A stretch of 64,000 bases of DNA. It comes from a virus. The notes under the pieces are model-generated. The model had not been told where the DNA came from and did not search any database. It worked only from the letters and a program-made list of their open reading frames with translations. How positions within the stretch are numbered: the first letter of the stretch is position 1; the number at the start of each line of letters is the position of its first letter. Both the position numbers and the translations under genes were made by a program. Positions 2,279 through 38,278 of this stretch are shown in pieces. The stretch lies in the IMG/VR virus record IMGVR_UViG_3300036828_000667, positions 32,001 through 96,000 of that record, one strand, 5' to 3'.

Positions 2279-2435
2279 AACCGCTCACCACACCTAACCC
2301 CAAGGGGAGGCTCTGGACGGGCTTTCCCGTGGCCCTGTGGGGGGTAGCTGGGGAGCCGGAAATCTGCACTGGCGGGCTTCTAAGCAGAGCCTGGACCCAC
2401 TTGCCATCCAATAGATCCATGGGGTAAGAACAATA

Positions 2436-2515
2436 TGCATACCGCCCCTCTCCAGGCCGCTGCACGGCATACCGAACCGCCCCTGCCCTGACCAAAGCAC
2501 ACCGCACCATACTTT
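2436..2515 (+). ncRNA. Pentamer-code unit (NCC/NGC-NN)n, stand-alone
   Basis: TGCAT ACCGC CCCTC TCCAG GCCGC TGCAC GGCAT ACCGA ACCGC CCCTG CCCTG ACCAA AGCAC ACCGC ACCAT ACTTT; upstream TTGCCA(2401)-N18-TAAGAA(2425). Confidence 0.75.
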
Positions 2516-7269: not shown

Positions 7270-7314
7270 GACCTAACATCCCTCTTGACTTTCAGACTGA
7301 CCTATGCTCACATC

Positions 7315-7386
7315 ACCACTTCACCCCGAACCGACCCGAACCATGCCACCCCGATCTGCACCCGTCCGCTCCATACCACACTTTTT
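7315..7386 (+). ncRNA. Pentamer-code unit, stand-alone
   Basis: ACCAC TTCAC CCCGA ACCGA CCCGA ACCAT GCCAC CCCGA TCTGC ACCCG TCCGC TCCAT ACCAC ACTTTTT; upstream TTGACT at 7285 (weak -10). Confidence 0.75.
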
Positions 7387-8180: not shown

Positions 8181-8229
8181 GTCTATCCCATCCGAACCAG
8201 TCCAATCCTATCCTATGCACACCGCACAG
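8181..8229 (+). ncRNA. Pentamer-code unit, stand-alone
   Basis: GTCTA TCCCA TCCGA ACCAG TCCAA TCCTA TCCTA TGCAC ACCGC ACAG; TTGACT(8148)-N18-TACGTG(8172); hairpin follows. Confidence 0.75.
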
Positions 8230-8264
8230 AATGACCTAAGAGAAATCTTAGGTCATTCGCTTTT
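8229..8264 (+). terminator. Hairpin with GAAA tetraloop after pentamer unit
   Basis: GAATGACCTAAGA-GAAA-TCTTAGGTCATTC (perfect 13-bp stem) followed by GCTTTT. Confidence 0.75.
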
Positions 8265-8476
8265 CAATCAGTGTCATAACCATCTGCGCTATAGTAGTTA
8301 TTTTCGTGGTACGGACACTCTTCTCTCATGAGAGCTAAGCAACGGCGAATAGATGCACTGCTTGTCCCATAGGACTCAACCACGTGGTCGCACCTTGAAC
8401 AAGTAACCTTGACACTGGGAACTTCCCCGTGATCACCTTCCAATTCGATTTCATCTATGGTACATTTTACCTTCAT
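8264..8476 (-). CDS. Hypothetical Cys-containing protein
   Basis: CSRC and RRCL..MREECP motifs. Confidence 0.5.
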   Translation of the reverse strand: MKVKCTIDEIELEGDHGEVPSVKVTCSRCDHVVESYGTSSASIRRCLALMREECPYHENNYYSADGYDTD

Positions 8477-8728
8477 GGCGCATCGTCAGGCCAGTATTTG
8501 AACTGGTTCCTAGATTGCCAATTATATATAGGTTGCCAGATCCCAATCTTCGCTAGTAGCTTCAAATACAATGGAGCGGCAGCATGACAAGCAACTAGCA
8601 TCTGATCGTAATGATCGTTGTGAGCCTTGATCCGGTCAAGAAAGGGAGTCTCTCCCTTCGTATGTTCACCGATTGATCCCATATCCCCCTCCACTTGACT
8701 CACAAAGATTATTTGGCTACTATCCAAA

Positions 8729-8781
8729 CGCGAGCCAAACCGGTCCACTCCACGCCCCTCCTTCGCTTACCGATCCACACA
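8729..8781 (+). ncRNA. Pentamer-code unit, stand-alone
   Basis: CGCGA GCCAA ACCGG TCCAC TCCAC GCCCC TCCTT CGCTT ACCGA TCCAC ACA; promoter TTGACT(8695)-N17-TACTAT(8718). Confidence 0.75.
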
Positions 8782-13493: not shown

Positions 13494-13633
13494 AAAGTAT
13501 GGTGTGGTATGCTGCGGTGTGGTTCGAGGGGCCGCGGGCTGGTTTGGTTAGGGTTGCAGAACACAGTATGAACTAAAGTATGGTGCGGTATGCTGAGGAT
13601 TGCGATGGTCTGCGCTGGGTCGCTGTGCTAGGC
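13494..13633 (-). ncRNA. Two tandem pentamer-code units (13494-13557, 13575-13633)
   Basis: + strand AAAGTATGGTGTGGT... and AAAGTATGGTGCGGT... (reverse complement ends ACCRC ACCAT ACTTT); minus-strand promoter TTGACT(13668-63)-N17-TATGGC(13645-40). Confidence 0.75.
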
Positions 13634-14367
13634 AGACAAGCCATACCAAACGGTGGATTCGGAGTCAAGGGAGAATGACGATGATAATAGAGCTTCCTGT
13701 CACGATCGTTTGGGACTGGGAAGGCAACCGTTCCCTCGGTAAACATCGCAGGCTACGTCGGACATTCACAGTACGCATGAGCACCCAGGATGATGCTGGA
13801 CCACTAACTTATTGCACCGAATACCCACCTAGAGAGAATTCAAGATGGCAAGTCGACCATGGTGTACTATCGACATTGCTAAGCAATGAAGCTAATAGTG
13901 AAATATGCATGCGTGCGGTAGATGATCCAGAAGGCTATGAACCACAGTATCTAAAGGAGTAGTCAATGGGAACACGTAAGTCACCTAGTCGATTTGATGT
14001 GGATCTGTCAAAGTTGGACGAGGACGAACCTTTTTTTATACTCAGGGGCAATGACGAGTTGGCCGCAGAACTCGTTAGGGATGAATCACGATAAAGTTCT
14101 CGCGGCCTATCAATGTGCCGAAGACATGAGGAGGTGGAACAAGAGAAAGACACCAGACTAAACCTATTAATTTTTGGAGGGGAGAATGATTACTAGGAAA
14201 GAAGTGATTAAAAGACTACAGGATCAATTACAGTGGAGGTCCCACACCGGGAGATTGATGGGGCAAGTAATGGTACCAAGAGAGCATGCTGAGTTTATAA
14301 TAGAAAACTTGATCCATCTGACAGAGCTACATCCCAACGAGAAAACATTCTAAAATGGAGAGAACCA

Positions 14368-15183: not shown

Positions 15184-15391
15184 AAAAGTATGGTGCGGTG
15201 TGCAGCGGTTAGGCATGGGATGGGCGGGCTGGCGACGGCGAGGCACGGGTTGCATTGGTGTGGGTTGGTAGGATAGAGGACAAAGGACCAGAAGATTAGA
15301 TATCCTCTGATCCTTTGAACAGATGTGCGGTTTGGTATGCTGTGGGCCGGCACGGCTGGGGGTGGCGCGGGAAGGCTTGGCATGGCTTGCA
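15184..15391 (-). ncRNA. Two tandem pentamer-code units (15321-15391, 15184-15273) separated by a hairpin (15281-15317)
   Basis: NN-GGN/GCN periodicity on + strand; promoter TTGACT(15426-21)-N17-TAGTCT(15403-15398) on minus strand; 16-bp stem with two G.U pairs on minus strand. Confidence 0.78.
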
Positions 15392-15433
15392 CCAAAAAGA
15401 CTACTACCAAACTTACCGCTAGTCAACCACTAT

Positions 15434-15847
15434 TTACCTGATACGCTGCACTAAGCAACCTTCCGATTTTGCCTGCCACGTCCCACACCACTGGCCAGCT
15501 TCAACAGGTCGCAAGATCCACTTTCGTGAATATTCCCAGATCGGAACGACCTTTTTTTCCATGACCTTCTGGCCGTTCTCGTCTAAGACGAGTTTGTTCT
15601 TTTCACCCCGCTTAGACCGTGAGATTTCCTGTGTCCCGACTTGCGTGGCAAATTTCATTTTGACCGCGGACACAGCTGAACCCAAAGTTTTCATGGGATC
15701 GGGCATCTTCTCGGTCTTAGCTGCGAAGAAGCTCTGTCCGACGCCCAATTTATCAAGAGGATATTTGGCGACCCCATTACGGTTACCACGTTTCGACTTC
15801 GGCATTTCCACCGCGTCGATGATTTCAAACGTCACTTGCTCTTCCAT
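15434..15847 (-). CDS. Small basic putative DNA-binding protein
   Basis: 'KYPLDKLGVGQSFF' motif common in small phage proteins; Lys-rich. Confidence 0.5.
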   Translation of the reverse strand: MEEQVTFEIIDAVEMPKSKRGNRNGVAKYPLDKLGVGQSFFAAKTEKMPDPMKTLGSAVSAVKMKFATQVGTQEISRSKRGEKNKLVLDENGQKVMEKKVVPIWEYSRKWILRPVEAGQWCGTWQAKSEGCLVQRIR

Positions 15848-17433: not shown

Positions 17434-17805
17434 TTGGACTTGCGCCTAGGATGGAGAATACCCAGGAGGATTGGCAAGATCCTTGGTTACCTGGAAGGGT
17501 TCAAATCCCTACATCCCTTGCCCTTAAGAAAGTTCAACCTTCCACCAAAAATAGGGGAAAGACCTTTGAAGAAAGAAAAGAAGGAGAAGGAGAACAAGGC
17601 ATATACTATAGCCGACGAACTATCCAATTGGCTAACTAAAAACAAAGTAGATATAGGTGATGCTATCGATGCCATGGCTAGGTTAATAGGATTGGCTGTA
17701 GGTGTCAGCGTAGACTATGAGGAAATAGAAACCATACTACAGAATATCTACAAGGAAAGTCTCAAAGCGGCGTACTTTTCGTATAAAAAGAATCAAGCTA
17801 ACTAG
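17434..17805 (+). CDS. Hypothetical protein
   Basis: 123-aa ORF followed by a hairpin. Confidence 0.45.
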   Translation: MDLRLGWRIPRRIGKILGYLEGFKSLHPLPLRKFNLPPKIGERPLKKEKKEKENKAYTIADELSNWLTKNKVDIGDAIDAMARLIGLAVGVSVDYEEIETILQNIYKESLKAAYFSYKKNQAN

Positions 17806-17907: not shown

Positions 17908-17974
17908 AAATTGTGCGGTTTGGCCTGCAGCGGAGCGGATAGGCTAGGTTCGGATAGGCAAGGAAAGGCGTGGT
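17908..17974 (-). ncRNA. Pentamer-code unit, stand-alone
   Basis: + strand TTGTGCGGTTTGGCCTGCAGCGGAGCGGATAGGCTAGGTTCGGATAGGCAAGGAAAGGCGTGGT; promoter TTGACA(18016-11)-N17-TAAGGG on minus strand. Confidence 0.75.
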
Positions 17975-18027
17975 ATGAACAATCACTCCCTTAGCCTAGC
18001 TCACAAAAGCTGTCAAGGTTCTTTTCG

Positions 18028-20376: not shown

Positions 20377-20438
20377 AAATTGTGCGGTATGGGATGCATG
20401 GGGCAGGTCCGGCAGGGTAAGCGTCGGGGTGGGGTGGA
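20377..20438 (-). ncRNA. Pentamer-code unit, stand-alone
   Basis: + strand ATTGTGCGGTATGGGATGCATGGGGCAGGTCCGGCAGGGTAAGCGTCGGGGTGGGGTGGA; promoter TTGACA(20474-69)-N17-TAATGA on minus strand. Confidence 0.75.
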
Positions 20439-20711
20439 CAAAGCTTCATTACTATCATTGCAATCCATTGTCAAGAAGTCTAAAATCAAGCCTCCCGTCC
20501 TCCCCTGGCTGGAGCATAGGATGAAAAAAGGCCCATATCGCAGAAGAACCCTTGTCAGAAAATACAGGTTTCATCCCTATGAGAATTTTGAGTCAGGTAA
20601 GGGATGGAACCTTCCCCATAACAGAAAAAGGGTAAAGAAACATCATGGTCCAGCACTAAATAAACTAGGTCAATTAAGACGTTTTTGGATTACTGTTACA
20701 AGAACATACAG

Positions 20712-24483: not shown

Positions 24484-24545
24484 GTGCGGTTTGGTTAGGA
24501 ATGCAGTGGCTCGGCAGGGTTCGCTTCGGTTTGGTATGGTTCGAA
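24482..24545 (-). ncRNA. Pentamer-code unit, stand-alone
   Basis: + strand TTGTGCGGTTTGGTTAGGAATGCAGTGGCTCGGCAGGGTTCGCTTCGGTTTGGTATGGTTCG; promoter TTGACA(24581-76)-N17-TACGTC on minus strand. Confidence 0.78.
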
Positions 24546-25195: not shown

Positions 25196-25200
25196 TCTTC

Positions 25201-25265
25201 GGCGAACCGGTCCAATCCGAACCGACCCTATCCCTACCGGACCCTTGCACAGCATACCGCACATC
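25201..25265 (+). ncRNA. Pentamer-code unit, stand-alone
   Basis: GGCGA ACCGG TCCAA TCCGA ACCGA CCCTA TCCCT ACCGG ACCCT TGCAC AGCAT ACCGC ACATC. Confidence 0.8.
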
Positions 25266-25266
25266 T

Positions 25267-25308
25267 ACCCCTCAGGCTGTATTACACAGCCTGAGGGGTT
25301 ATTATTAT
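25267..25308 (+). terminator. Hairpin after pentamer unit
   Basis: ACCCCTCAGGCTGT-ATTAC-ACAGCCTGAGGGGT followed by TATTATTATT. Confidence 0.7.
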
Positions 25309-29648: not shown

Positions 29649-30176
29649 ATGGCAAAACACAATGAAGAAAATGATCTATGGTTCCTTAGCAAAATCGCAG
29701 ATGGAACCATTTCTGTATCCGAAGACGGAGAGGTCTTCAACAACAAGACAGGTAGATATATAGGCGCTCAACAAGGAGCAGGTTACCTTAAGATTTCTAT
29801 GGCAAAGAGAGTTGATGGAAAACTTGTTATTGTCCATATGCAAATCCATAGGTTAGTATGGCTACATTTCAAAGGACCTATTCCTCAGGGACTAGAAGTC
29901 AATCACAAAGATTTAAACAAATCGAACCCACGATTGTCAAATCTAGATTTACAAACACCCAAAGGGAATGCTGAACATGCCACCTTAAATGGTGTTGACC
30001 GACGCTCAAAAACAGGAGGCCATAAAAACGCTAATGCCAAATTTACACGTGAACAAGTCGAGATGCTACGGAGACAATTCAAATCGAAAGAAACCACAGT
30101 TAAAGAAATAATGATAAACTATAGTGTTTCTAAGCCAGTTGTGTATTGGATGCTGGAAGGAAGGACCTATAAATAG
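29649..30176 (+). CDS. HNH endonuclease
   Basis: 'IHRLVW.HF.GPIP.GLEVNHKDLNKSN..LSNL...T..GN..HA'. Confidence 0.85.
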   Translation: MAKHNEENDLWFLSKIADGTISVSEDGEVFNNKTGRYIGAQQGAGYLKISMAKRVDGKLVIVHMQIHRLVWLHFKGPIPQGLEVNHKDLNKSNPRLSNLDLQTPKGNAEHATLNGVDRRSKTGGHKNANAKFTREQVEMLRRQFKSKETTVKEIMINYSVSKPVVYWMLEGRTYK

Positions 30177-30201: not shown

Positions 30202-30531
30202 ATGGTAGAATTTGGAGCGTTCATTCGCAAAGAACGAGAGGCCAGAGATATTAGCTTACGAAAGATGGCCAAGAAGATTGGTGTAAGTGCAACCTATCTA
30301 TCACAAGTGGAACTTGATAGGTTCCCACCACCAACTGAGGATAGGGTAAAGGCTATTGCCAAGATCATTGACTGTAATCCTGACTACCTACTGGCCAAAG
30401 CTGGACGGATCTCGACCGACATTTCCGACATCATTAAACGTCGTCCGATCGAGCTTTCGATGCTTATTCGAGCCGCCAAGTACTTGAGTAACGATGACAT
30501 TGCCCAATTGATTAATGCGGCGTCAGCGTAG
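30202..30531 (+). CDS. XRE-family HTH transcriptional regulator
   Basis: 'FGAFIRKERE...SLRKMAKKIGVSATYLSQVE..R..PP'. Confidence 0.85.
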   Translation: MVEFGAFIRKEREARDISLRKMAKKIGVSATYLSQVELDRFPPPTEDRVKAIAKIIDCNPDYLLAKAGRISTDISDIIKRRPIELSMLIRAAKYLSNDDIAQLINAASA

Positions 30532-30811
30532 GAGCCTCACTGGTAAGTCTTTTAGGCCTGGAGGCCCTACCACCTGGCCTGTCCATAATTCGCGTCAGTG
30601 GGCTTCCAACAAAGAGGAGAGGGTAATGCGTTGCGATCGGTGTCAGGGAACAGGCTGGGATCGGGCAGGAGTACACCCTGTACTTGGGCCGCTCTTCGAT
30701 TGCAACCATCCGTGTACTGAATGCGGCGGGTCAGGCATCGCCCACTGTTGCGACGGCATCTGCGAACAGCCTTCAATTGACAAGTCTATAGATGACAAGC
30801 TAACATCTTGA

Positions 30812-30884
30812 CGCCTACCGTACCACTCCGACGCCAACCACACCGAGCCGGTCCATACCTTTCCAAACCAAACCACACTTTTTT
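30812..30884 (+). ncRNA. Pentamer-code unit, stand-alone
   Basis: CGCCT ACCGT ACCAC TCCGA CGCCA ACCAC ACCGA GCCGG TCCAT ACCTT TCCAA ACCAA ACCAC ACTTT TTT; TTGACA(30777)-N18-TAACAT(30801). Confidence 0.8.
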
Positions 30885-31409
30885 ATTACTACTAGATATT
30901 CAGGAAAGGCGAACATGAGAGGTTAGGTTAAACTAACTTCGTTCTTCCTTTAGCTCAGCTACAAACTTCTTAATCAGAGTTGTTAAGGTTGGAGTGTGCT
31001 TAGCTGGAAAGTTACCAGCAAGTACCTTGGCAATAGCATACCGAATTACCTTAAACTCTTCCTCAGTTAGCTCCAACGTTATCACTAGGCACCTCGCCTT
31101 TCTTTATCACGCTAACCTTACTATCATCGATCTTCAGAGTAAACCTCTTATTATCCACAACTTCTCGCCATCTATTTTCCTCAATATAAGCACAGGCTTT
31201 AAGGTAGTCCGTCAAACAAAAAACATGAGTATGTATCTGTGACCAACACGGATGCTCACGGCATAAGTGTTCAATCTTGGCGGCTAACTCCCTGAGTGGT
31301 GATTGCATACCCAACCTCCCTTTTGTGTGACCATAAAGTTACACTTAAATTGAATCTGATTCTGGGAATTGACCTGCCAAGGCTGATAGGCGAAAACTCA
31401 TATTGCAAG

Positions 31410-31479
31410 GTCGAACCGCTGCCTTGCTTGCCAAACCGGGCCAAGCCGGCGCGGACCAAACCTCCGCACACCGCACAAT
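31410..31479 (+). ncRNA. Pentamer-code unit in the leader of the Cas7-like gene
   Basis: GTCGA ACCGC TGCCT TGCTT GCCAA ACCGG GCCAA GCCGG CGCGG ACCAA ACCTC CGCAC ACCGC ACAAT; followed by a 13-bp hairpin at 31477-31514. Confidence 0.8.
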
Positions 31480-31533
31480 GGGAGTAGTCAAATGGCTTGC
31501 AGACTACTCCCATTAACACAGGAGTAAAACAAC

Positions 31534-32175
31534 ATGCTAATTTCAGTCACGATCTCCGGAATCCGACCTTTAATCCTCGACGCGTTTTCCGAGGAAGCGT
31601 TGCTTAAGGGGAAGGGAGGAAAGAGTACAGCCCAGCCCAAGGAACTGAGTCCCTTGGATCAAGCCAAGCGTAGGTTATACTATAATGGAGATGGTACCGA
31701 CGTTCCTATATTCCCAGCAGACAACCTACTCAGCTGTATCATCGCTGCCGGGCGGTTTATCAAGGTCGGGAAAAGGCAACTAACTACTCGCGACAGTACG
31801 ACAGTAACTTCATTCCTACAGATATCAGAACTATATCTTCCCATTAGGTCGATAGATGGATGGCGAGTCGACTCCAGGAGCATCGTCAACCCGTCTACAA
31901 AAGGTCGTCACATATGCTACCGTCCCATCTTTGACGACTGGGAGTTAGATTTCACGCTCGACATCGATACGAATGAAGCGAGCGACAGCTTGGTTAGACA
32001 GTTGATTGATAGAGCAGGTAGGTTTATCGGGATCGGGGTCATGCGGCCCGAAAGGAAGCGGCAGTATGGGCAATACGTGGTGCGCTGCTGGGATTGCCGT
32101 TCAGAACATGAAGAGCTTGACAACATACCAAAACTTGCTAAGAAAACTAAGACTAGATCGAAAGAACTAGTCTAA
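31534..32175 (+). CDS. Cas7/RAMP-like putative RNA-guided effector protein
   Basis: Beta1 'ISVTISGIRPLIL'; 'PIFPADNLLSCIIAAG' (RAMP P.IP...LK motif); 'RPIFDDWELDFTL'; C-terminal Gly-rich loop 'GIGVMRPERKRQYGQY'; GGAG RBS; flanked by pentamer units. Confidence 0.7.
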   Translation: MLISVTISGIRPLILDAFSEEALLKGKGGKSTAQPKELSPLDQAKRRLYYNGDGTDVPIFPADNLLSCIIAAGRFIKVGKRQLTTRDSTTVTSFLQISELYLPIRSIDGWRVDSRSIVNPSTKGRHICYRPIFDDWELDFTLDIDTNEASDSLVRQLIDRAGRFIGIGVMRPERKRQYGQYVVRCWDCRSEHEELDNIPKLAKKTKTRSKELV

Positions 32176-32186
32176 CACTGGTTCAT

Positions 32187-33422
32187 CGCGGACCGTACCG
32201 GAGCGTGCCATGCCCGTCCCCGCCGAGCCCGACCAAACCAGACCCAACCTACGCGGACCCAGCCTATCCTTAGCGTAGCACACCGCACAGTTAAGGCCAA
32301 AACCAGAAGGAAGGAGATACGGAAATGAAACCACGCATCTCCTTCCTTCAAACCCAAGTTTCGAACAATCCATGCCACTGCAAACCGCGCCAGCCCTATG
32401 CCTACCACTGTGAACCGCTCCACACCATTCTTTTATCAATTATCAAGTCAACACTCCGAACCAGACCCCGCCTTACCCAACAGCACCCCACCAAACCGGA
32501 CCGACCCACTCCAATGTGCACCTCAGCAGACCGAAGCACACCATACTTTATCAATTGCCTTCCCGACCCGAGCTATGCCCAACCGACCCGACCCACTCCG
32601 GGCCGCACCCCTCCCTCCCATCCCGCAGCACACCATACTTTATTTCATTACGACTCTCCGGCCCTACGCCAACCACACCAGCCCGGAGCGTGCCATACCG
32701 CACCATACTTTTATCATTTCAATGCGCACCGTCCCTCACCGTGCCATCTCTCACCCGACCATACCATCCCTCCCCACCTCGGCCCGGACCCCGCCGATGC
32801 AAACCACACCATACTTTATCAATTTTCAGAACCATCCCGACCGTACCAGTGCGCGCCATTCCAATGCAGCCCTCGCCTCCGCATGTCAGGCCGCCCCGAC
32901 CCATGCCGCACCAAACCACACTTTCTTTATCAACTAAGGAGAACCAGCATGACCACACATCGTCCCACATTCGAAGACTGGCAGCTAGACTTCACTTTGG
33001 ATTATAATGAAACTGAAATAGATGAAGGTACTATACGTAAGCTAATCGAAGTAGTAGCTGGAACGCACATAGGACTTGGCTCTATGCGCCCAGAACGACA
33101 TGGACCCTATGGACAGTTTAAGATCAAGGAATGGACTCCACATTCTTAGTCTTATCCATCTCTGCTTACCGTAGCCCTCATCACCGCACCCGTGAGCACC
33201 GACCCATGCCTGAGCCTACCTCAGCATACCCAACCGCAGCAACCCGGTGCGAACCAAACCACACTATTTTTTATACAATTTCAACTTACCGTCCCGGCCC
33301 GAGCCAGTCCATCGTGCGCCGACCCGTCGCTCCCCATACCGCACTATACTTTATTCATTACCAACCATGCCATACCATGCCATTCCGGAACGCTGCCCTC
33401 CGGTCCACACCACACTTTCTTT
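32187..33422 (+). repeat. Array of 10 pentamer-code units (candidate guide-RNA array)
   Basis: Units at about 32187-32289, 32369-32434, 32455-32549, 32557-32641, 32657-32712, 32723-32817, 32830-32928, 33163-33272, 33283-33352 and 33364-33422; each (NCC/NGC-NN)n, most ending in an ACCAT-ACTTT-like tail plus an AT-rich linker. Confidence 0.88.
32949..33149 (+). CDS. 66-aa mini-paralog of the C-terminal third of the Cas7-like protein
   Basis: AAGGAG RBS; MTTHRPTFEDWQLDFTLDYNETEIDEGTIRKLIEVVAGTHIGLGSMRPERHGPYGQFKIKEW aligns with RPIFDDWELDFTLDIDTNEASDSLVRQLIDRAGRFIGIGVMRPERKRQYGQYVVRCW. Confidence 0.75.
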   Translation: MTTHRPTFEDWQLDFTLDYNETEIDEGTIRKLIEVVAGTHIGLGSMRPERHGPYGQFKIKEWTPHS

Positions 33423-33436
33423 AGGAGTTTAACCAG

Positions 33437-33682
33437 ATGGCAAAGGTAACTGGTATTGACGGTAAAAGCTTTATCAAAGGTCAACGTTTTGGTAAGCTAG
33501 TTGCGGTACGTCCACTAGGCTGGAGTAGTGACCGCAGCTGGTGTTGGCTATGTAAGTGTGATTGCGGCAATGAGACTATCTTAAGTGCTAACAGACTTCG
33601 AAGTGGTGAAGTTCAAGCTTGTGGATACGCTGTAACTATAAAATCAGACACAAATGAGGAACACTGTAACGGACAGATATAA
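33437..33682 (+). CDS. Truncated HNH-associated N-terminal domain
   Basis: 'GQRFGKLVAV...WLCKCDCGNE.......LRSG..QACG' with no nuclease domain. Confidence 0.55.
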   Translation: MAKVTGIDGKSFIKGQRFGKLVAVRPLGWSSDRSWCWLCKCDCGNETILSANRLRSGEVQACGYAVTIKSDTNEEHCNGQI

Positions 33683-34252: not shown

Positions 34253-34771
34253 TTAAGTAGCATCATAGGCAAACTCACCAGCCAAACGTTTGGAAGCTTC
34301 CTCATACGCCTGAACCGCCTCTTCTACTGTGTTAAAGGTACCGATCTGAACGTCTTTATACATATGTTTTATTCTAGCCTCCCATTTTCCTGTGCTTTTC
34401 TTGTACCTTACTCCCTTAAAACCACTTGTATTATTTTTGAACATAGGACGATTGTAGCAATTCTGCTGTGTCGTCGCTGGACGAAGATTAGTCCATATAT
34501 TGTTACCTGGATTTAGATCCTTATGATCTATCTCATAATTAGGCCATTCTCCTGTCACATATAACCATATAATACGATGTACTTGATACATTCTGCCATT
34601 AACTTTTACCTGTATACGTCCTCCTTTCTTAATAGAACCCGCCGTACTTCCAATAACAATCCTCCAGTTTAACGCCTCCTTCCATGTAAGTATACCAGTT
34701 TCAGGATCATAGTTAAAAATCTGCCTAACAAACTCAGCTGTTAGACTATTGTTATAGATACGAGTCCCCAT
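34253..34771 (-). CDS. HNH-AP2 homing endonuclease
   Basis: 'VHRIIW...IDHKDLNPGNN..NLR' plus AP2 motif. Confidence 0.9.
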   Translation of the reverse strand: MGTRIYNNSLTAEFVRQIFNYDPETGILTWKEALNWRIVIGSTAGSIKKGGRIQVKVNGRMYQVHRIIWLYVTGEWPNYEIDHKDLNPGNNIWTNLRPATTQQNCYNRPMFKNNTSGFKGVRYKKSTGKWEARIKHMYKDVQIGTFNTVEEAVQAYEEASKRLAGEFAYDAT

Positions 34772-34773
34772 TT

Positions 34774-34977
34774 TTACGCTCCTGTAGTGGCAGCCTTTAC
34801 TGCCCAATGAACAGCCTCTTCATAAGCGGTTTGTGCTAAGGACGCTAACCTAGCATCTTTCGATTTCAGAGTTTCACATAGGTCGATCAACTCAGCAGAC
34901 TTTTGCTTGATCTCATCAACTATAGTATCTGCACTTGGATTAAATGCAGTCCGAACTCGTTGTTCACCGATTGTCAT
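34774..34977 (-). CDS. Acb2/Tad1-like helical-hairpin protein (putative anti-defence nucleotide sponge)
   Basis: 'RLASLAQTAYEEAVHWAVKAAT' C-terminal helix pattern; AGGAG RBS. Confidence 0.5.
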   Translation of the reverse strand: MTIGEQRVRTAFNPSADTIVDEIKQKSAELIDLCETLKSKDARLASLAQTAYEEAVHWAVKAATTGA

Positions 34978-35024
34978 AGTACTCTCCTCTTGACAAGTTC
35001 ACCTTGTTACACCTACGATGATTA

Positions 35025-35083
35025 CTCGAACCGACCCCGTCCAGGCCACTCCTCCGCCCACCGACGCAAACCGCACAATTTTA
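35025..35083 (+). ncRNA. Pentamer-code unit, stand-alone
   Basis: CTCGA ACCGA CCCCG TCCAG GCCAC TCCTC CGCCC ACCGA CGCAA ACCGC ACAAT TTT; TTGACA(34990)-N18-TACGAT(35014). Confidence 0.8.
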
Positions 35084-35650: not shown

Positions 35651-35750
35651 ACCATACCGAGCCGAGCCGTTGCCGCACCATACTTTATCAATTTGATTCC
35701 CACCACACCTCCCCGGACCTATCCAGCCCCCTGCAAACCGCACCATACTT
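35651..35750 (+). ncRNA. Two short tandem pentamer-code units (35651-35686, 35697-35750)
   Basis: Both end CCGC ACCAT ACTT; same TATCAATT linker as in the main array. Confidence 0.7.
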
Positions 35751-36075: not shown

Positions 36076-36159
36076 ATTTAAACCTCCTACCTTTCACAGA
36101 ACCGCTATACTTTATCCATAATCCACACTTAGTGATTTAGAAGTCAGCCAAGAGTTCTC

Positions 36160-36295
36160 TGCGTACCGACTCTTTCCGGACCGGACTGTACCACACTATA
36201 CCATACCTCACCTACCCATACCTCGCCTAACCACGCCTTTGCGACCCGGAGCGTGCCTCGCCTACCCAATGCGACCCTGACCACAGCACACAATT
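36160..36295 (+). ncRNA. Long pentamer-code unit (about 27 pentamers)
   Basis: TGCGT ACCGA CTCTT TCCGG ACCGG ACTGT ACCAC ACTAT ACCAT ACCTC ... ACCAC AGCAC ACAAT. Confidence 0.75.
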
Positions 36296-36352: not shown

Positions 36353-38278
36353 CTACGCAATTCTTTGAAACCTATCACCAAGAGACTGCAACGTATCCCT
36401 TATAGAGCCGTAAGCTTCATATACGTTGCTGGGCGTGTCGTAAAGCGACTGTACCGCATTATAAGTCGCAGCGCATAGGCTGTCCGCCATGTCGCAATGA
36501 CTACCTTCTAATTGCGCCTTCACGACCTTATTATTTTCGAACCAGATGGATTCCAGTTCCTTCTTCAAGTCACGCATCATTCCAGTTTTGAGGCAATCAG
36601 TCGCGACAATGTTACTAAGAACATCATATGGTGTACGTGTCTTTTCCACGCTCAACACCTCCACAGTCTCAGCATACCCTATCGATGTAAGCTTCTGTAT
36701 CAATTGTTCACTCTGATATTGGTCAGCTGTGAAAGTCTTGAACCCTAGACCATAGTAATCTCTCAAGTCTATAATGAACTCCTTGACTGCTTCCAAATTG
36801 ATACGGTTTGGACTTGTGATCCTTAGAACCAAATCAGCGACGTATATCACCTTGCCTGTCCGGCTAAGCTCCTTGTGGACTACGGATAGCCCAGCTGAAC
36901 TCACAGCAGCACCGTCCCAAGCTCCGTATCTAGTAGCCGCTGGATATCTTTTCCATCTGTATCCTTCAGGCGTAGCTATAAACAAGTCTCTCGGTAGCTG
37001 CTCTCGTAGCGGGGCTGGGATAGGCTGATTGGCATTACCAAGAGGTGCCGAAACATAAAGAATCGGGCAGAGGTTTGGATCTTCGACTTTGCTGAGGTCA
37101 TCGAAAGGCACCTCCTGACCCATGCTCGCTTGACCAGCTAGATTCATCAGGGATTGCTCTGTCCTTCTTTCAAAGTCACGTTGATATCGCTTAGGGACTT
37201 TCACTAGTGTACAAGACGGTGGAAGATCAAACTTGTCATTCTCAGCTAGTACACTTTCTCTAGGTTCAAGTACCCTTGATGGGTGTCTTTGAGTACCACG
37301 CATACACCAGAAGTGACCATCATGTTTAAGCGCATCAGGATACTTGGTATCCCATATGGAGTACTGACTGACTTTACCAGCTGGATCATTTCGAAGCTGG
37401 GCGATGTGAGTAGCCATAACCCCCTTCTCATGAGCAATAGAAGACAATAGAGTCATTAGCGTATAGCGGACTCCCAAGAACCTGGACCTTATGCGTTCAA
37501 AGATGTTGTCATATAGTGTAAATGCCTTGTCTACGAGACCCTTGCTACCAATTCGAAATTCTGCCTCGTCGAGCATACCTCCAAACACATCTTCACCCAG
37601 AACATGTCGATCCTGTGATCCAGCGTAAATCTTTACGTTATTAGGAAACTCAAATCCTTCTCCATTGAATACCCATGGTGTAAGTTTCTCTAATTCAGGA
37701 TCGTTCTCAAATTCAAGGAAGTCCCTTAAATGATTCACCTTCCTGTAGTCCTTACAGGCTGAGAGCAATATCCCAACACGTTCAATCAGAGTGCTCTGGG
37801 CCTTCTCCTTAGTAACAGTAAACAGCTGTAGGATCATCGGCTTTGATGGGCCGGTACCCATACTCAGCTGAGGATTCCTGAAAGAGTTTATCCTGTAAAC
37901 ATTATACAATTGTGCTATTAAACCAGCAGTGCTCTTACCAGTGCCAATAGCACCAGTTACTCCCCATCTACAGATAATAGATTTAGGAGCAAATATCTCA
38001 ATCAAATCCTTCTTCCAGTTAGGAAACAAGATTAGTGCATCATCCCCTATATAATCAGGAGTTAGAAACTCTTCTATAGTAGGTATTGGTCTCTTGAAAC
38101 ACATAGTAGTCAAGTCAGGGACTTCTTTAAAATGACCTAGCATTGTCAACGCTAGGCCAAGACGTTTCTTCTCAGGTGGAATCTCCCTAAGTCGAGGGTT
38201 TCTGGCGTCCATATCCAACATAAACTGAGCAAACTCGCTAGACTCAGCAATTCTGTCAAGCTCCACAGGATCTATCAT
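36353..38278 (-). CDS. terL: Terminase large subunit
   Basis: Walker A 'TGAIGTGKS', Walker B 'GMLDEAEF', 'TADQYQS' and C-terminal nuclease 'CDMADSLCAA'. Confidence 0.85.
   Translation of the reverse strand: MIDPVELDRIAESSEFAQFMLDMDARNPRLREIPPEKKRLGLALTMLGHFKEVPDLTTMCFKRPIPTIEEFLTPDYIGDDALILFPNWKKDLIEIFAPKSIICRWGVTGAIGTGKSTAGLIAQLYNVYRINSFRNPQLSMGTGPSKPMILQLFTVTKEKAQSTLIERVGILLSACKDYRKVNHLRDFLEFENDPELEKLTPWVFNGEGFEFPNNVKIYAGSQDRHVLGEDVFGGMLDEAEFRIGSKGLVDKAFTLYDNIFERIRSRFLGVRYTLMTLLSSIAHEKGVMATHIAQLRNDPAGKVSQYSIWDTKYPDALKHDGHFWCMRGTQRHPSRVLEPRESVLAENDKFDLPPSCTLVKVPKRYQRDFERRTEQSLMNLAGQASMGQEVPFDDLSKVEDPNLCPILYVSAPLGNANQPIPAPLREQLPRDLFIATPEGYRWKRYPAATRYGAWDGAAVSSAGLSVVHKELSRTGKVIYVADLVLRITSPNRINLEAVKEFIIDLRDYYGLGFKTFTADQYQSEQLIQKLTSIGYAETVEVLSVEKTRTPYDVLSNIVATDCLKTGMMRDLKKELESIWFENNKVVKAQLEGSHCDMADSLCAATYNAVQSLYDTPSNVYEAYGSIRDTLQSLGDRFQRIA

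What the first reader, a model, noticed from the sequence alone, without database searches (positions are those of the whole stretch)
31369..33422. Phage Cas7/RAMP-like gene coupled to a non-CRISPR array of 5-nt-periodic RNA units: candidate RNA-guided system
Seen: a 213-aa ORF with a RAMP-like layout (beta1 'ISGIRPLIL', 'PIFPADNL', C-terminal Gly-rich loop 'GIGVMRPER..YGQY'). It has one non-coding unit upstream and 10 downstream, each made of near-constant NCC/NGC triplets alternating with variable dinucleotides. There are no identical direct repeats with unique spacers, and no cas1/2/3/5/6 in the window. Known: Cas7-type RAMPs oligomerise along guide RNA with a fixed nucleotide period. Inference: one subunit binds each pentamer through the constant triplet, and the variable NN positions together specify a gapped nucleic-acid target, for example in competing phages or host genes. 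With no nuclease nearby, the output may be repression. From memory, a recently reported phage system (VIPR: Cas7-related protein plus GGY/NN RNAs) matches the reverse complement of this pattern. I cannot verify that here, so novelty must be checked against it.
Basis: partly seen in the sequence, partly recalled or inferred. Interest (0 to 1): 0.97.

Follow-up and report, generated by a model that had tools for sequence, protein, structure and literature searches.

The report
Phage VIPR system with C-C guides
This phage carries a VIPR system, a CRISPR-like RNA-guided DNA binder first described in 2026, in an unusual form: its guide RNAs use x-C-C instead of G-G-Y as the fixed letters, and 29 guide genes are scattered over the genome, several beside the genes they resemble.

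Summary
A 213-aa RAMP gene (31534-32175) has one pentamer-repeat unit upstream and ten downstream, far beyond chance.

It is not a new class. The protein is a homologue of SUSP1 Vipr (PDB 36pp, profile E 1.6e-14) and folds like Csm3/Cas7. The locus has the VIPR layout (bioRxiv 10.64898/2026.04.26.720920). This scan has already noted VIPR in at least 367 genomes, including other odd-motif variants.

Three things go beyond the printed text I could read.

1. The repeat is not an antisense GGY/NN. It lies on the vipr strand and lines up with G1-G2-Y3 as n-C-C. G1 has become variable, G2 is C, and Y3 stays C. The G-contacting residues of SUSP1 Vipr are replaced (H17 to D, D177 to V, W178 to M). In 152 loci this split is clean: 17 V-M/V-L loci are CC-only and 70 D-[FYW] loci are GG-only.
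2. The 113.8-kb record holds 29 guide units. Eighteen are solo or paired mini-genes, most with their own promoter.
3. Eight guides match a gene within 400 nt, including vipr itself, at 63-88% of codon positions 1-2. Their third variable base is synonymous with the resident codon but mostly a different letter.

The most likely function is RNA-guided silencing of near-identical rival phage alleles. No external target was found.

The parts
31370..31405 (+). Promoter-like stretch (TTGACC box) ahead of the upstream unit and vipr
   Evidence: TTGAC lies 44 nt before the first pentamer. The -10 element is weak.
31413..31472 (+). Upstream vrRNA unit of 12 pentamers in the vipr 5' leader. It decodes to EALLKGKGGKST, which equals Vipr residues 21-32.
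   Evidence: Codon positions 1-2 match 20/24, the third base 5/12, local p<=0.005.
31473..31513 (+). 3' handle GCACA followed by a 10-12 bp hairpin, just before the vipr ribosome-binding site
   Evidence: dG -20.6.
31534..32175 (+). vipr: a 213-aa minimal RAMP with G-loop G-I-G-V-M-R-P and D16
32185..32284 (+). vrRNA unit A of 20 pentamers. It decodes to the Vipr G-loop peptide.
   Evidence: Codon positions 1-2 match 34/40 against 32026-32085, the third base 2/20, z=13.9.
32306..32349 (+). Strong 13-bp hairpin between unit A and the rest of the array. It may be an attenuator or a processing site.
32367..32917 (+). Six vrRNA units (32367-32426, 32453-32542, 32555-32634, 32655-32704, 32721-32810, 32833-32917). 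They are separated by the conserved junction ACACC-ATACTTTATCAATT.
   Evidence: None has a match in the phage's own genome.
32949..33149 (+). Truncated second vipr (66 aa, the C-terminal third, G-loop S-M) with its own AAGGAG ribosome-binding site. It is probably the remnant of a second tandem VIPR locus.
   Evidence: 49% identity to Vipr residues 129-186, E 2e-20. phrog_4652, E 1.9e-9. No short homologue elsewhere.
33161..33411 (+). Three vrRNA units (33161-33260, 33286-33340, 33362-33411) after the truncated copy
2434..2508 (+). Dispersed vrRNA mini-gene
7298..7377 (+). Dispersed vrRNA mini-gene
8184..8223 (+). Dispersed vrRNA mini-gene with a TTGACT promoter and a terminator at 8229-8258. 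It matches the neighbouring gene at 8288-8311.
   Evidence: codon positions 1-2 match 14/16, p<=0.005.
8727..8776 (+). Dispersed vrRNA mini-gene with the promoter TTGACT-17-TACTAT (8695-8723) and a following hairpin
13501..13636 (-). Tandem pair of vrRNA units (13582-13636, then 13501-13560) behind one promoter
15192..15393 (-). Tandem pair of vrRNA units (15329-15393, then 15192-15271). The first matches the adjacent gene at 15626-15664.
   Evidence: (z=7.1).
17917..17976 (-). Dispersed vrRNA mini-gene. It matches the antisense strand of the adjacent ORF 17434-17805, wobble-aligned.
20386..20440 (-). Dispersed vrRNA mini-gene
24488..24542 (-). Dispersed vrRNA mini-gene with a following hairpin
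25199..25258 (+). Dispersed vrRNA mini-gene with a TTGACA promoter and a 14-bp terminator at 25267-25299
30810..30874 (+). Dispersed vrRNA mini-gene with the promoter TTGACA-18-TAACAT at 30777-30806
35028..35072 (+). Dispersed vrRNA mini-gene with the promoter TTGACA-18-TACGAT at 34990-35019
35700..35744 (+). Dispersed vrRNA unit
36158..36287 (+). Long unit of 26 pentamers with an internal phase slip. It matches the antisense strand of the 3' end of the 641-aa P-loop gene (36378-36455), wobble-aligned.
   Evidence: (z=6.2).

Best explanation
This is a VIPR locus: a Vipr RAMP protein plus vrRNA genes, from a small divergent clade that I call V-M after its G-loop.

By homology with SUSP1 VIPR, one Vipr protomer should bind each pentamer of the RNA and sequester the constant bases. 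The variable bases would then be presented in codon register to double-stranded DNA, and binding would silence the target. No nuclease partner is evident.

What differs is the scaffold. On the vipr strand each pentamer is N-N-n-[C>G]-C. Aligned to the canonical G1-G2-Y3-N4-N5, this is n1-C2-C3-N4-N5. The G1 pocket residues are lost (H17 to D, D177 to V) and base 1 has become variable. The residue that stacks on G2 changes (W178 to M) and base 2 becomes C. The residue that contacts Y3 (R179) and the thumb residue R138 are kept, and base 3 stays C.

The RNAs are made from the vipr strand. One lies in the vipr leader. Ten lie behind vipr and are probably cut from a co-transcript. Eighteen lie elsewhere in the genome, as stand-alone promoter-guide-(hairpin) mini-genes and tandem pairs.

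Eight guides are near-copies, in codon register, of a gene lying within 400 nt, including early codons and the G-loop codons of vipr itself. I read these as weapons against closely related co-infecting phages. The resident alleles would be spared by mismatches at codon positions 1-2 (12-37%) and by different wobble bases.

Shown here: homology, fold, periodicity, strand evidence, covariation between residues and motif, and the near-self matches. Inferred: formation of the RNA-protein complex, DNA binding, silencing, and the identity of the targets.
For: Family membership:
- phrog_4652, E 2e-16.
- BLASTP to SUSP1 Vipr, E 7e-10.
- Profile hit to PDB 36pp 'SUSP1 Vipr protein', E 1.6e-14 over residues 15-184.
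- AlphaFold2 model, pLDDT 79, with Csm3/Cas7 as the best folds.
- Same layout as the SUSP1 locus that I read in KT454805: promoter, vrRNA, vipr, then array.

Strand:
- TTGAC lies 32-44 nt upstream of 13 of 29 units in the C-C orientation, and these are nearly all the first units of their clusters. Three units have a TTGAC anywhere in the 60 nt upstream in the other orientation. The background rate is 0.0014 per nt.
- A TA-starting -10 hexamer follows 17-18 nt later.
- Terminators follow units on that strand (8229-8258, 25267-25299, L077).
- In 13 of 15 V-M-clade loci a unit ends 12-31 nt before the vipr start codon, so it must be transcribed with vipr.

Motif homology:
- Among 152 loci, 70 with G-loop D-[FYW] are GG-only on the vipr strand and none is CC-only. 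Seventeen with V-M or V-L are CC-only and none is GG-only.
- Intermediate lineages on the same strand and frame are A-F (R/W/A-G-C), S-Y (A-G-C) and S-M (a-[G/C]-C).
- Residue equivalences come from an alignment to SUSP1 numbering. The contact residues come from the cryo-EM paper.
- Guide positions 1-2 have the base composition of codon positions 1-2, like canonical N4-N5.

Targets:
- Eight of 29 guides have their best genome-wide match within 400 nt (z 3.1-13.9 for seven of them; local p<=0.005 for all eight).
- An allele 86% identical to Vipr (P0101) carries the I-to-V change that guide A spells.
- Guides aimed at early and late vipr codons are in print for the SUSP1 family.
Against: - There are no RNA data, so the strand is inferred.
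- Comparing hairpin stability on the two strands (the G-U test) did not favour either strand.
- One lineage breaks the simple residue-to-base rule. L131 has H, D-M and the motif T-G-C.
- No external target was found for any guide.
- Resident genes match some guides at 79-88% of codon positions 1-2. Under the published 80% criterion that would count as self-targeting, so autoregulation is not excluded.
- No vap accessory gene is conserved beside vipr in this clade.
- The counts of codon-family switches (5 of 10 among same-amino-acid Leu/Ser/Arg codons) and the third-base identity in guide A (2/20) are only suggestive.
Confidence: 0.75

Rival explanations
1. The guides are canonical G-rich vrRNAs (GG-N-NN) transcribed from the strand opposite to vipr. 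The C-C pattern is then simply their complement.
For: - The complement reads G(97%)-G/C-N-N-N, close to GGY/NN and to the 'NNNGG' variant mentioned in the first paper.
- A good sigma-70-like site on the - strand (33707-33679, TTGACA-17-CATTAT) points into the array.
- Some hairpins are more stable on that strand.
Against: - The promoters and terminators of the mini-genes face the other way.
- The upstream unit lies 12-31 nt from the vipr start codon in 13 of 15 loci of the clade.
- On the complement, the Y3 position would be 40% purine, although the canonical pocket excludes purines.
- G1 would stay invariant although both of its contact residues are replaced.
- Intermediate lineages link GGC to nCC on the vipr strand.
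Confidence: 0.1
2. The near-self guides regulate the phage's own genes. Vipr bound to imperfectly matched guides would damp or time the expression of vipr and of the neighbouring genes (autoregulation), rather than attack rival phages.
For: - Eight guides sit within 400 nt of their best match.
- Matches at codon positions 1-2 of 79-88% in five pairs are near or above the 80% cut-off the authors use for calling targets.
- Two guides flank vipr and match vipr.
Against: - A self-regulator has no reason to keep mismatches, yet none of the eight is perfect.
- Mismatches include Leu, Ser and Arg codon-family switches that keep the protein unchanged.
- Guide A spells the residue of a different allele.
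- The published surveys found no self-targets at or above 80%, and the authors state that perturbing NN pairing abolishes silencing.
Confidence: 0.2
3. The period-5 tracts are not guide genes. They would instead be a DNA-level feature, or part of the long Pro/Thr-rich ORFs that run through them (for example 32325-33149).
For: Open frames of 160-274 aa cross the array.
Against: - A 5-nt period cannot be a coding repeat.
- C-rich DNA lacks stop codons by composition alone.
- The units sit in the same positions as the experimentally shown vrRNAs of SUSP1.
- They co-occur with vipr homologues in about 100 loci.
Confidence: 0.02

Closest known systems
Type II VIPR of Escherichia phage SUSP1 (Vipr, vap1, four vrRNAs). 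Sources: bioRxiv 10.64898/2026.04.26.720920 and 10.64898/2026.04.26.720927; PDB 36pp.
   Same: - A homologous minimal RAMP protein.
- One vrRNA between the promoter and vipr, and an array behind the gene, all on the vipr strand.
- Tracts of 8-26 pentamers followed by a conserved 3' end.
- Variable bases in codon register, with the wobble position not specified by NN.
- A phage-borne system with no cas genes.
   Different: - The scaffold is n-C-C instead of G-G-Y.
- H17, D177 and W178 are replaced by D, V and M.
- The third base is variable and carries codon information.
- There is no vap gene and no pseudoknot tail. The 3' handle is ACACC-RCAC.
- There are 29 guides, of which 18 lie away from the locus.
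- Protein identity to SUSP1 Vipr is only about 31%, over the C-terminal 61 residues.
Non-canonical VIPR arrays (GAC/NN, CAC/NN, WGT/NN, TGH/NN) reported in bioRxiv 10.64898/2026.10.21.760802, and the 'NNNGG, YNNNG, NNNNG' variants of the first paper
   Same: Period-5 arrays with a different fixed part, lying next to Vipr-like folds. The idea that the scaffold letters vary between clades is already in print.
   Different: - An n-C-C (NNN/CC) motif is not named in the text I could read. The figures and tables were not available.
- No link between G-loop residues and scaffold letters is made in the passages I read.
Solo and vipr-targeting vrRNAs of SUSP1-family phages and satellites (bioRxiv 10.64898/2026.10.15.759431)
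   Same: - Guides aimed at early and late codons of vipr.
- Wobble-aligned guides.
- Self-match scores lower than the match to rivals.
- Guide genes found away from a vipr gene.
   Different: - Those phages have lost vipr. This phage keeps vipr and still carries vipr-like guides.
- Here the solo guides are spread over about 52 kb, most with their own promoter, and several lie beside the very gene they resemble.
Cas7/Csm3 backbone subunits of class 1 CRISPR effectors
   Same: RRM core, thumb and glycine-rich loop, with oligomerisation along a guide at a fixed period (best fold matches).
   Different: - No CRISPR repeats.
- No Cas1 in the record. Other cas genes were not searched.
- A 5-nt rather than a 6-nt period.
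- A gapped code rather than a contiguous spacer.

Membership tests
VIPR system (Vipr + vrRNA) | The Vipr protein is a minimal RAMP homologous to SUSP1 Vipr | tested here: met
   - BLASTP, E 7e-10.
- Profile hit to PDB 36pp, E 1.6e-14.
- phrog_4652.
- Csm3/Cas7 as the best folds.
VIPR system (Vipr + vrRNA) | Tandem pentanucleotide-repeat tracts of about 9-16 units flank vipr on its own strand | tested here: met
   - One upstream and ten downstream units of 10-20 pentamers each.
- Shuffles give almost none.
- The strand is supported by promoters and by the 5'-leader position of the upstream unit.
VIPR system (Vipr + vrRNA) | Repeat consensus GGY/NN | tested here: not met
   The consensus is N-N-n-[C 79%/G 19%]-C 97%. 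The authors allow 'a related consensus', and other non-canonical motifs are in print.
VIPR system (Vipr + vrRNA) | An invariable 3' tail follows the repeat tract | tested here: inconclusive
   A conserved end, A-C-A-C-C plus R-C-A-C, occurs across this genome and the clade. It is followed either by a non-conserved hairpin or by ATACTTTAT. There is no pseudoknot tail like that of SUSP1, and no covariation test was done.
VIPR system (Vipr + vrRNA) | A vap accessory gene lies next to vipr | tested here: not met
   No ORF family other than vipr is shared beside the gene in 22 loci of the clade plus the window. An SNF2 helicase lies upstream in six locus entries (four of them L005 and the near-identical L081-L083), and I do not count it as a vap.
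VIPR system (Vipr + vrRNA) | The RNA co-purifies with Vipr, and the complex binds dsDNA by the 1-nt skip rule and silences it | not testable with these tools
   This needs small-RNA sequencing, a pull-down, gel-shift assays and reporter assays.
VIPR system (Vipr + vrRNA) | Guides are wobble-aligned to coding targets | tested here: met
   All eight near-self matches put guide positions 1-2 on codon positions 1-2. Six are in sense and two in antisense (with frame arithmetic).
CRISPR-Cas class 1 | A repeat-spacer array plus an adaptation module (Cas1/Cas2) | tested here: not met
   There is no direct-repeat array and no Cas1 in the record. Cas2 and the other cas genes were not searched.

The most novel reading that the evidence does not exclude
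In this clade the former G1 position has been freed from its protein pocket and is read. The code would then be three letters on and two letters (C-C) off, recognising contiguous codons rather than NN-skip-NN.

Wobble recoding would then be what protects the resident alleles. Each dispersed guide, together with its recoded neighbour gene, would form a linked weapon-plus-immunity cassette that spreads among related phages like a selfish drive element.

The guides' third bases are synonymous with the resident codons but mostly different letters. This would also mean that guides are copied from, or kept matched to, real rival alleles. That bears on the open question of how new vrRNAs arise.
Probability: 0.25. 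Interest if true: 0.8.

Novelty: new variant of a known kind. Interest (0 to 1): 0.55.

Why it matters
VIPR is a months-old class, and its specificity rules rest on one clade (SUSP1 and P. fulva).

- **Scaffold rules.** This locus gives a natural series linking G-loop residues to scaffold letters: D-[FYW] with GGY, A-F with RGC, S-Y with AGC, S-M with a[G/C]C, and V-M with nCC. The series can be tested directly by swapping residues. It could guide the engineering of orthogonal Vipr/vrRNA pairs.
- **Deployment.** A phage can spread guides genome-wide as separate small genes. It can also place them beside recoded copies of their own targets.
- **Biology if confirmed.** That layout would point to kin competition between near-identical phages and to linkage between guide and immune allele. 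It would also give a handle on how guides originate.
- **If not confirmed.** The locus remains a well-annotated but ordinary member of a published family.

Tried and rejected
- **Close relatives in GenBank phages.** megablast and tblastn found nothing.
- **Pfam.** It gives nothing for the protein.
- **The look-up of encoding contigs was closed.** The long contigs of homologues (60-108 kb) and the contig of the 86% allele P0101 could therefore not be read. That was the most direct way to test whether rival alleles match the guides.
- **External targets.**
  - Three IMG/VR scans with 11-12-codon NN patterns, from guides 32453, 32721 and unit A, gave zero hits.
  - One scan of the species genomes gave a single hit. 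It proved to be chance, with 22/36 matched over the full guide.
  - An all-against-all comparison of 71 guides with 1.1 Mb of fetched loci found only the self matches, 80% matches of unit A to conserved G-loop codons of clade members, and a few short-guide matches exactly at or just above the 80% cut-off in unrelated loci that I did not pursue.
- **Hairpin G-U asymmetry as a strand test.** The result was mixed, confounded by the C-rich neighbouring units.
- **Generic promoter scan.** It was barely above shuffles (46 against 35), so I used the position-specific TTGAC test instead.
- **Automatic motif calling across loci.** It was too noisy. I replaced it by anchoring on the invariant C.
- **Self-matches in 195 guides of other loci.** Only one was significant. 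The near-self pattern is therefore not general, although the flanks there were short.
- **Dispersed units in the records of L004 and L005.** None were found, but these are fragments, 22-25% complete.
- **Short homologues of the 66-aa fragment.** None.
- **Orientation of solo units relative to flanking genes.** A crude gene map showed no firm bias.
- **First working idea, a true complement of GGY.** I rejected it in favour of the same-frame n-C-C reading.
Full report
**1. Observation**

The region reads as described. An ORF of 213 aa lies at 31534-32175 on the + strand, behind a good ribosome-binding site. C-rich tracts flank it, with a strict 5-nt period. Fourier power of C at period 5 is 5.7 at 32176, against a window median of 0.14. 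Runs of at least eight NNN[C/G]C pentamers number 22 on the + strand and 8 on the - strand of the window. Twenty Markov shuffles gave 0 runs in 19 cases and 1 in one case.

One unit lies upstream (31413-31472) and ten lie downstream (32185 to 33411). A 66-aa ORF at 32949-33149 lies inside the array. It is a truncated second copy of the gene, 49% identical to residues 129-186. There is no CRISPR-type repeat, no Rfam family and no Cas1 in the record.

**2. What it is**

VIPR was described in April 2026 (bioRxiv 10.64898/2026.04.26.720920). It comprises:
- a minimal RAMP protein, Vipr;
- vrRNAs made of 9-16 YNNGG repeats plus a 3' tail;
- one vrRNA upstream of vipr and an array downstream;
- recognition of dsDNA by the NN bases, with one skipped target base per repeat;
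- transcriptional silencing of rival phages and satellites.

I located the SUSP1 locus in KT454805 (28477-29061, - strand) and read its G-rich units on the vipr strand.

The window's protein belongs to this family:
- It matches phrog_4652 (E 2e-16).
- It matches SUSP1 Vipr by BLASTP (E 7e-10).
- A profile of its relatives hits PDB 36pp, 'SUSP1 Vipr protein', at E 1.6e-14.
- The AlphaFold2 model (pLDDT 79, pTM 0.74) has Csm3/Cas7 subunits as its best solved folds.
- The family is large, with 3,993 clusters at 50% identity at E<=0.001. Only 3 of the 73 representatives among the best 150 whose G-loop my pattern could read carry the V-M G-loop; the pattern missed the other 77.

**3. Strand and motif**

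On the vipr strand the pentamers end in C-C, which looks like the complement of GGY/NN. I tested three readings.

*(a) Which strand is transcribed?*
- In the C-C orientation, TTGAC lies 32-44 nt before the first pentamer of 13 units. These are nearly all the cluster-first units. Three units have a TTGAC anywhere in the 60 nt upstream in the other orientation. The background rate is 0.0014 per nt.
- TA-starting hexamers follow 17-18 nt later. The generic scan also picked up 8695, 30777 and 34990.
- Terminators follow units on that strand: 8229-8258, 25267-25299 and a textbook one in L077.
- In 13 of 15 distinct loci of the clade, a unit ends 12-31 nt before the vipr start codon. It is therefore part of the vipr leader.

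*(b) Is this a property of the clade?*
I fetched 71 viral and 80 metagenomic loci that encode relatives.
- Of the loci with a G-loop dipeptide D-[FYW], 70 have GG-only tracts on the vipr strand and none is CC-only.
- Of the loci with V-M or V-L, 17 are CC-only and none is GG-only.

*(c) How does C-C align to GGY?*
I anchored on the invariant C on the vipr strand.

| G-loop dipeptide | Loci | Motif on the vipr strand |
|---|---|---|
| D-F (nearest canonical relatives) | L016, L022, L065 | G-G-C-N-N |
| A-F | L024, L095, L120 | R/W/A-G-C |
| S-Y | L058 | A-G-C |
| S-M | L007 | a-[G/C]-C |
| V-M | window and its clade | n-[C 79%, G 19%]-C 97% |

The first two variable bases of the window's units have the composition of codon positions 1 and 2. 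The same holds for canonical N4-N5.

The simplest alignment is therefore n1-C2-C3-N4-N5, in the same frame and on the same strand as canonical VIPR.

The cryo-EM paper reports these contacts:
- H17 and D177 hydrogen-bond G1.
- R138 and W178 hold G2.
- R179 contacts Y3.

In an alignment to SUSP1 numbering, the V-M clade has D, V and M at positions 17, 177 and 178, and keeps R138 and R179. Loss of the G1 contacts goes with a variable base 1. The change of the stacking residue goes with G2 becoming C. The kept contacts go with C3.

One lineage does not obey a simple rule: L131 has H, D-M and the motif T-G-C. The comparison of hairpin stability between strands was uninformative.

I put the same-strand reading at about 85%.

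**4. Guides across the genome**

The window is bases 32001-96000 of a 113,838-bp IMG/VR record. The record holds 29 units, all between 16.6 and 68.3 kb. Eleven are at the locus. Eighteen are solo or paired units in intergenic gaps. Most of them have their own promoter and several have a hairpin.

The two other records of the clade that could be scanned whole have units only beside vipr. Both are fragments.

**5. What the guides spell**

This followed a lead from earlier notes of this scan, which I then tested. I dropped the two constant bases and compared the remaining triplets with the genome.

- Eight of 29 guides have their best match in the whole genome within 400 nt of themselves. Seven have z = 3.1-13.9 against shuffled guides, and all eight give local p<=0.005.
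- The upstream unit spells Vipr residues 21-32 exactly (positions 1-2 match 20/24).
- Unit A spells the G-loop, 17 of 20 residues (positions 1-2 match 34/40, third base 2/20).
- Six matches are in the sense of the gene and two are antisense. All are wobble-aligned.
- Across the eight pairs, 80 codons share positions 1-2, but only 24 of these share the third base. Yet in split codon boxes the purine/pyrimidine class is kept in 39 of 46 codons.

So the guide's third base is synonymous with the resident codon but usually a different letter. An unconstrained base would have lost that property over the time needed to scramble the resident wobble sites. Either the base is read, or the guides were copied recently from diverged alleles.

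Other points:
- Third bases are A-rich (44%), unlike the phage's own wobble usage, which is T 38%.
- Codon-family switches at Leu, Ser and Arg occur in 5 of 10 same-amino-acid cases. By my own count from the codon table, 5 of 6 in the two vipr guides are switched. This is suggestive only.
- A Vipr allele 86% identical (P0101) carries I-G-V-G, as unit A spells it, where the resident has I-G-I-G. Its DNA could not be fetched.
- Guides in the rest of the array match nothing in the phage or in 1.1 Mb of related loci.
- Four database scans found no target.
- Among 195 guides of other loci, only one had a significant match in its own flanks.

**6. Mechanism**

Most likely, Vipr coats each C-C RNA with one protomer per pentamer, and the complex binds DNA in codon register and silences it.

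The vipr-like guides and the neighbour-like guides fit attack on near-identical rival phages. The resident alleles would escape through mismatches. This parallels the vipr-targeting guides and the lowered self-match scores printed for the SUSP1 family. In those cases, however, the carriers had lost vipr.

Autoregulation remains possible. Four of the eight pairs match at or above the 80% cut-off at codon positions 1-2, and a fifth reaches 79%.

No nuclease partner is conserved. HNH homing-endonuclease genes do lie nearby.

**7. Novelty**

- The class is known.
- Non-canonical scaffolds are in print in general terms (GAC, CAC, WGT and TGH).
- This scan has already noted VIPR in at least 367 genomes, including A-Y-A and A-T types.
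- Not found in the text available to me:
  - the n-C-C motif;
  - the series linking residues to scaffold letters;
  - a vipr-positive phage with 18 guide units away from the locus, several placed beside the genes they resemble;
  - the codon information in the third base.
- Figures and supplementary tables of the papers were not readable. Part of this may therefore already be listed there.

Noticed in passing
window 32949-33149: A 66-aa ORF with its own strong ribosome-binding site is the C-terminal third of a second Vipr, with G-loop S-M rather than V-M. It lies between unit 7 and unit 8 of the array. It looks like the remnant of a second tandem VIPR locus. No other short homologue exists in the protein collection.
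   Followed up: partly
window 29649-30176 (+), 33437-33682 (+), 34253-34807 (-): Three HNH-type homing-endonuclease genes or fragments surround the locus. They hit Pfam HNH_3, a fragment of phrog_374, and HNH_3 plus AP2. Whether any of them cooperates with Vipr is unknown.
   Followed up: partly
loci L024, L095, L120, L058, L007, L131 (arrays beside vipr): Other Vipr lineages with altered G-loop dipeptides (A-F, S-Y, S-M, D-M) have altered scaffold letters on the vipr strand: R/W/A-G-C, A-G-C, a-[G/C]-C and T-G-C. Among the 73 of the 150 nearest family representatives whose G-loop my pattern could read, the dipeptide is very diverse (DF, SF, AY, AF, SY, SM, VM and others).
   Followed up: partly
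locus L090 289-882 and 1838-2527: One metagenomic contig of the clade carries two full vipr copies 1 kb apart, with a unit between them and a G-type tract at the contig end.
   Followed up: no
window 36158-36287 and 36353-38278: The longest unit (26 pentamers with an internal phase slip) faces the 3' end of a 641-aa P-loop gene, possibly the large terminase, though it has no Pfam or PHROG hit. It matches the antisense strand of that gene's last 35 codons.
   Followed up: partly
window 30202-30531: A Cro/CI-type helix-turn-helix gene lies 1 kb upstream of vipr on the same strand. Next come a Cys-rich 98-aa ORF and a solo guide.
   Followed up: no
all 29 units; loci L075-L094: Units end in a conserved handle, A-C-A-C-C then R-C-A-C. 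In arrays this is followed by ATACTTTAT(C)A. In solo genes it is followed by a non-conserved hairpin. It may mark where the filament ends or where the precursor is cut.
   Followed up: partly
loci L005, L086, L087 upstream of vipr: An SNF2-family helicase gene lies just upstream of vipr in several loci of the clade, but not in the window.
   Followed up: partly
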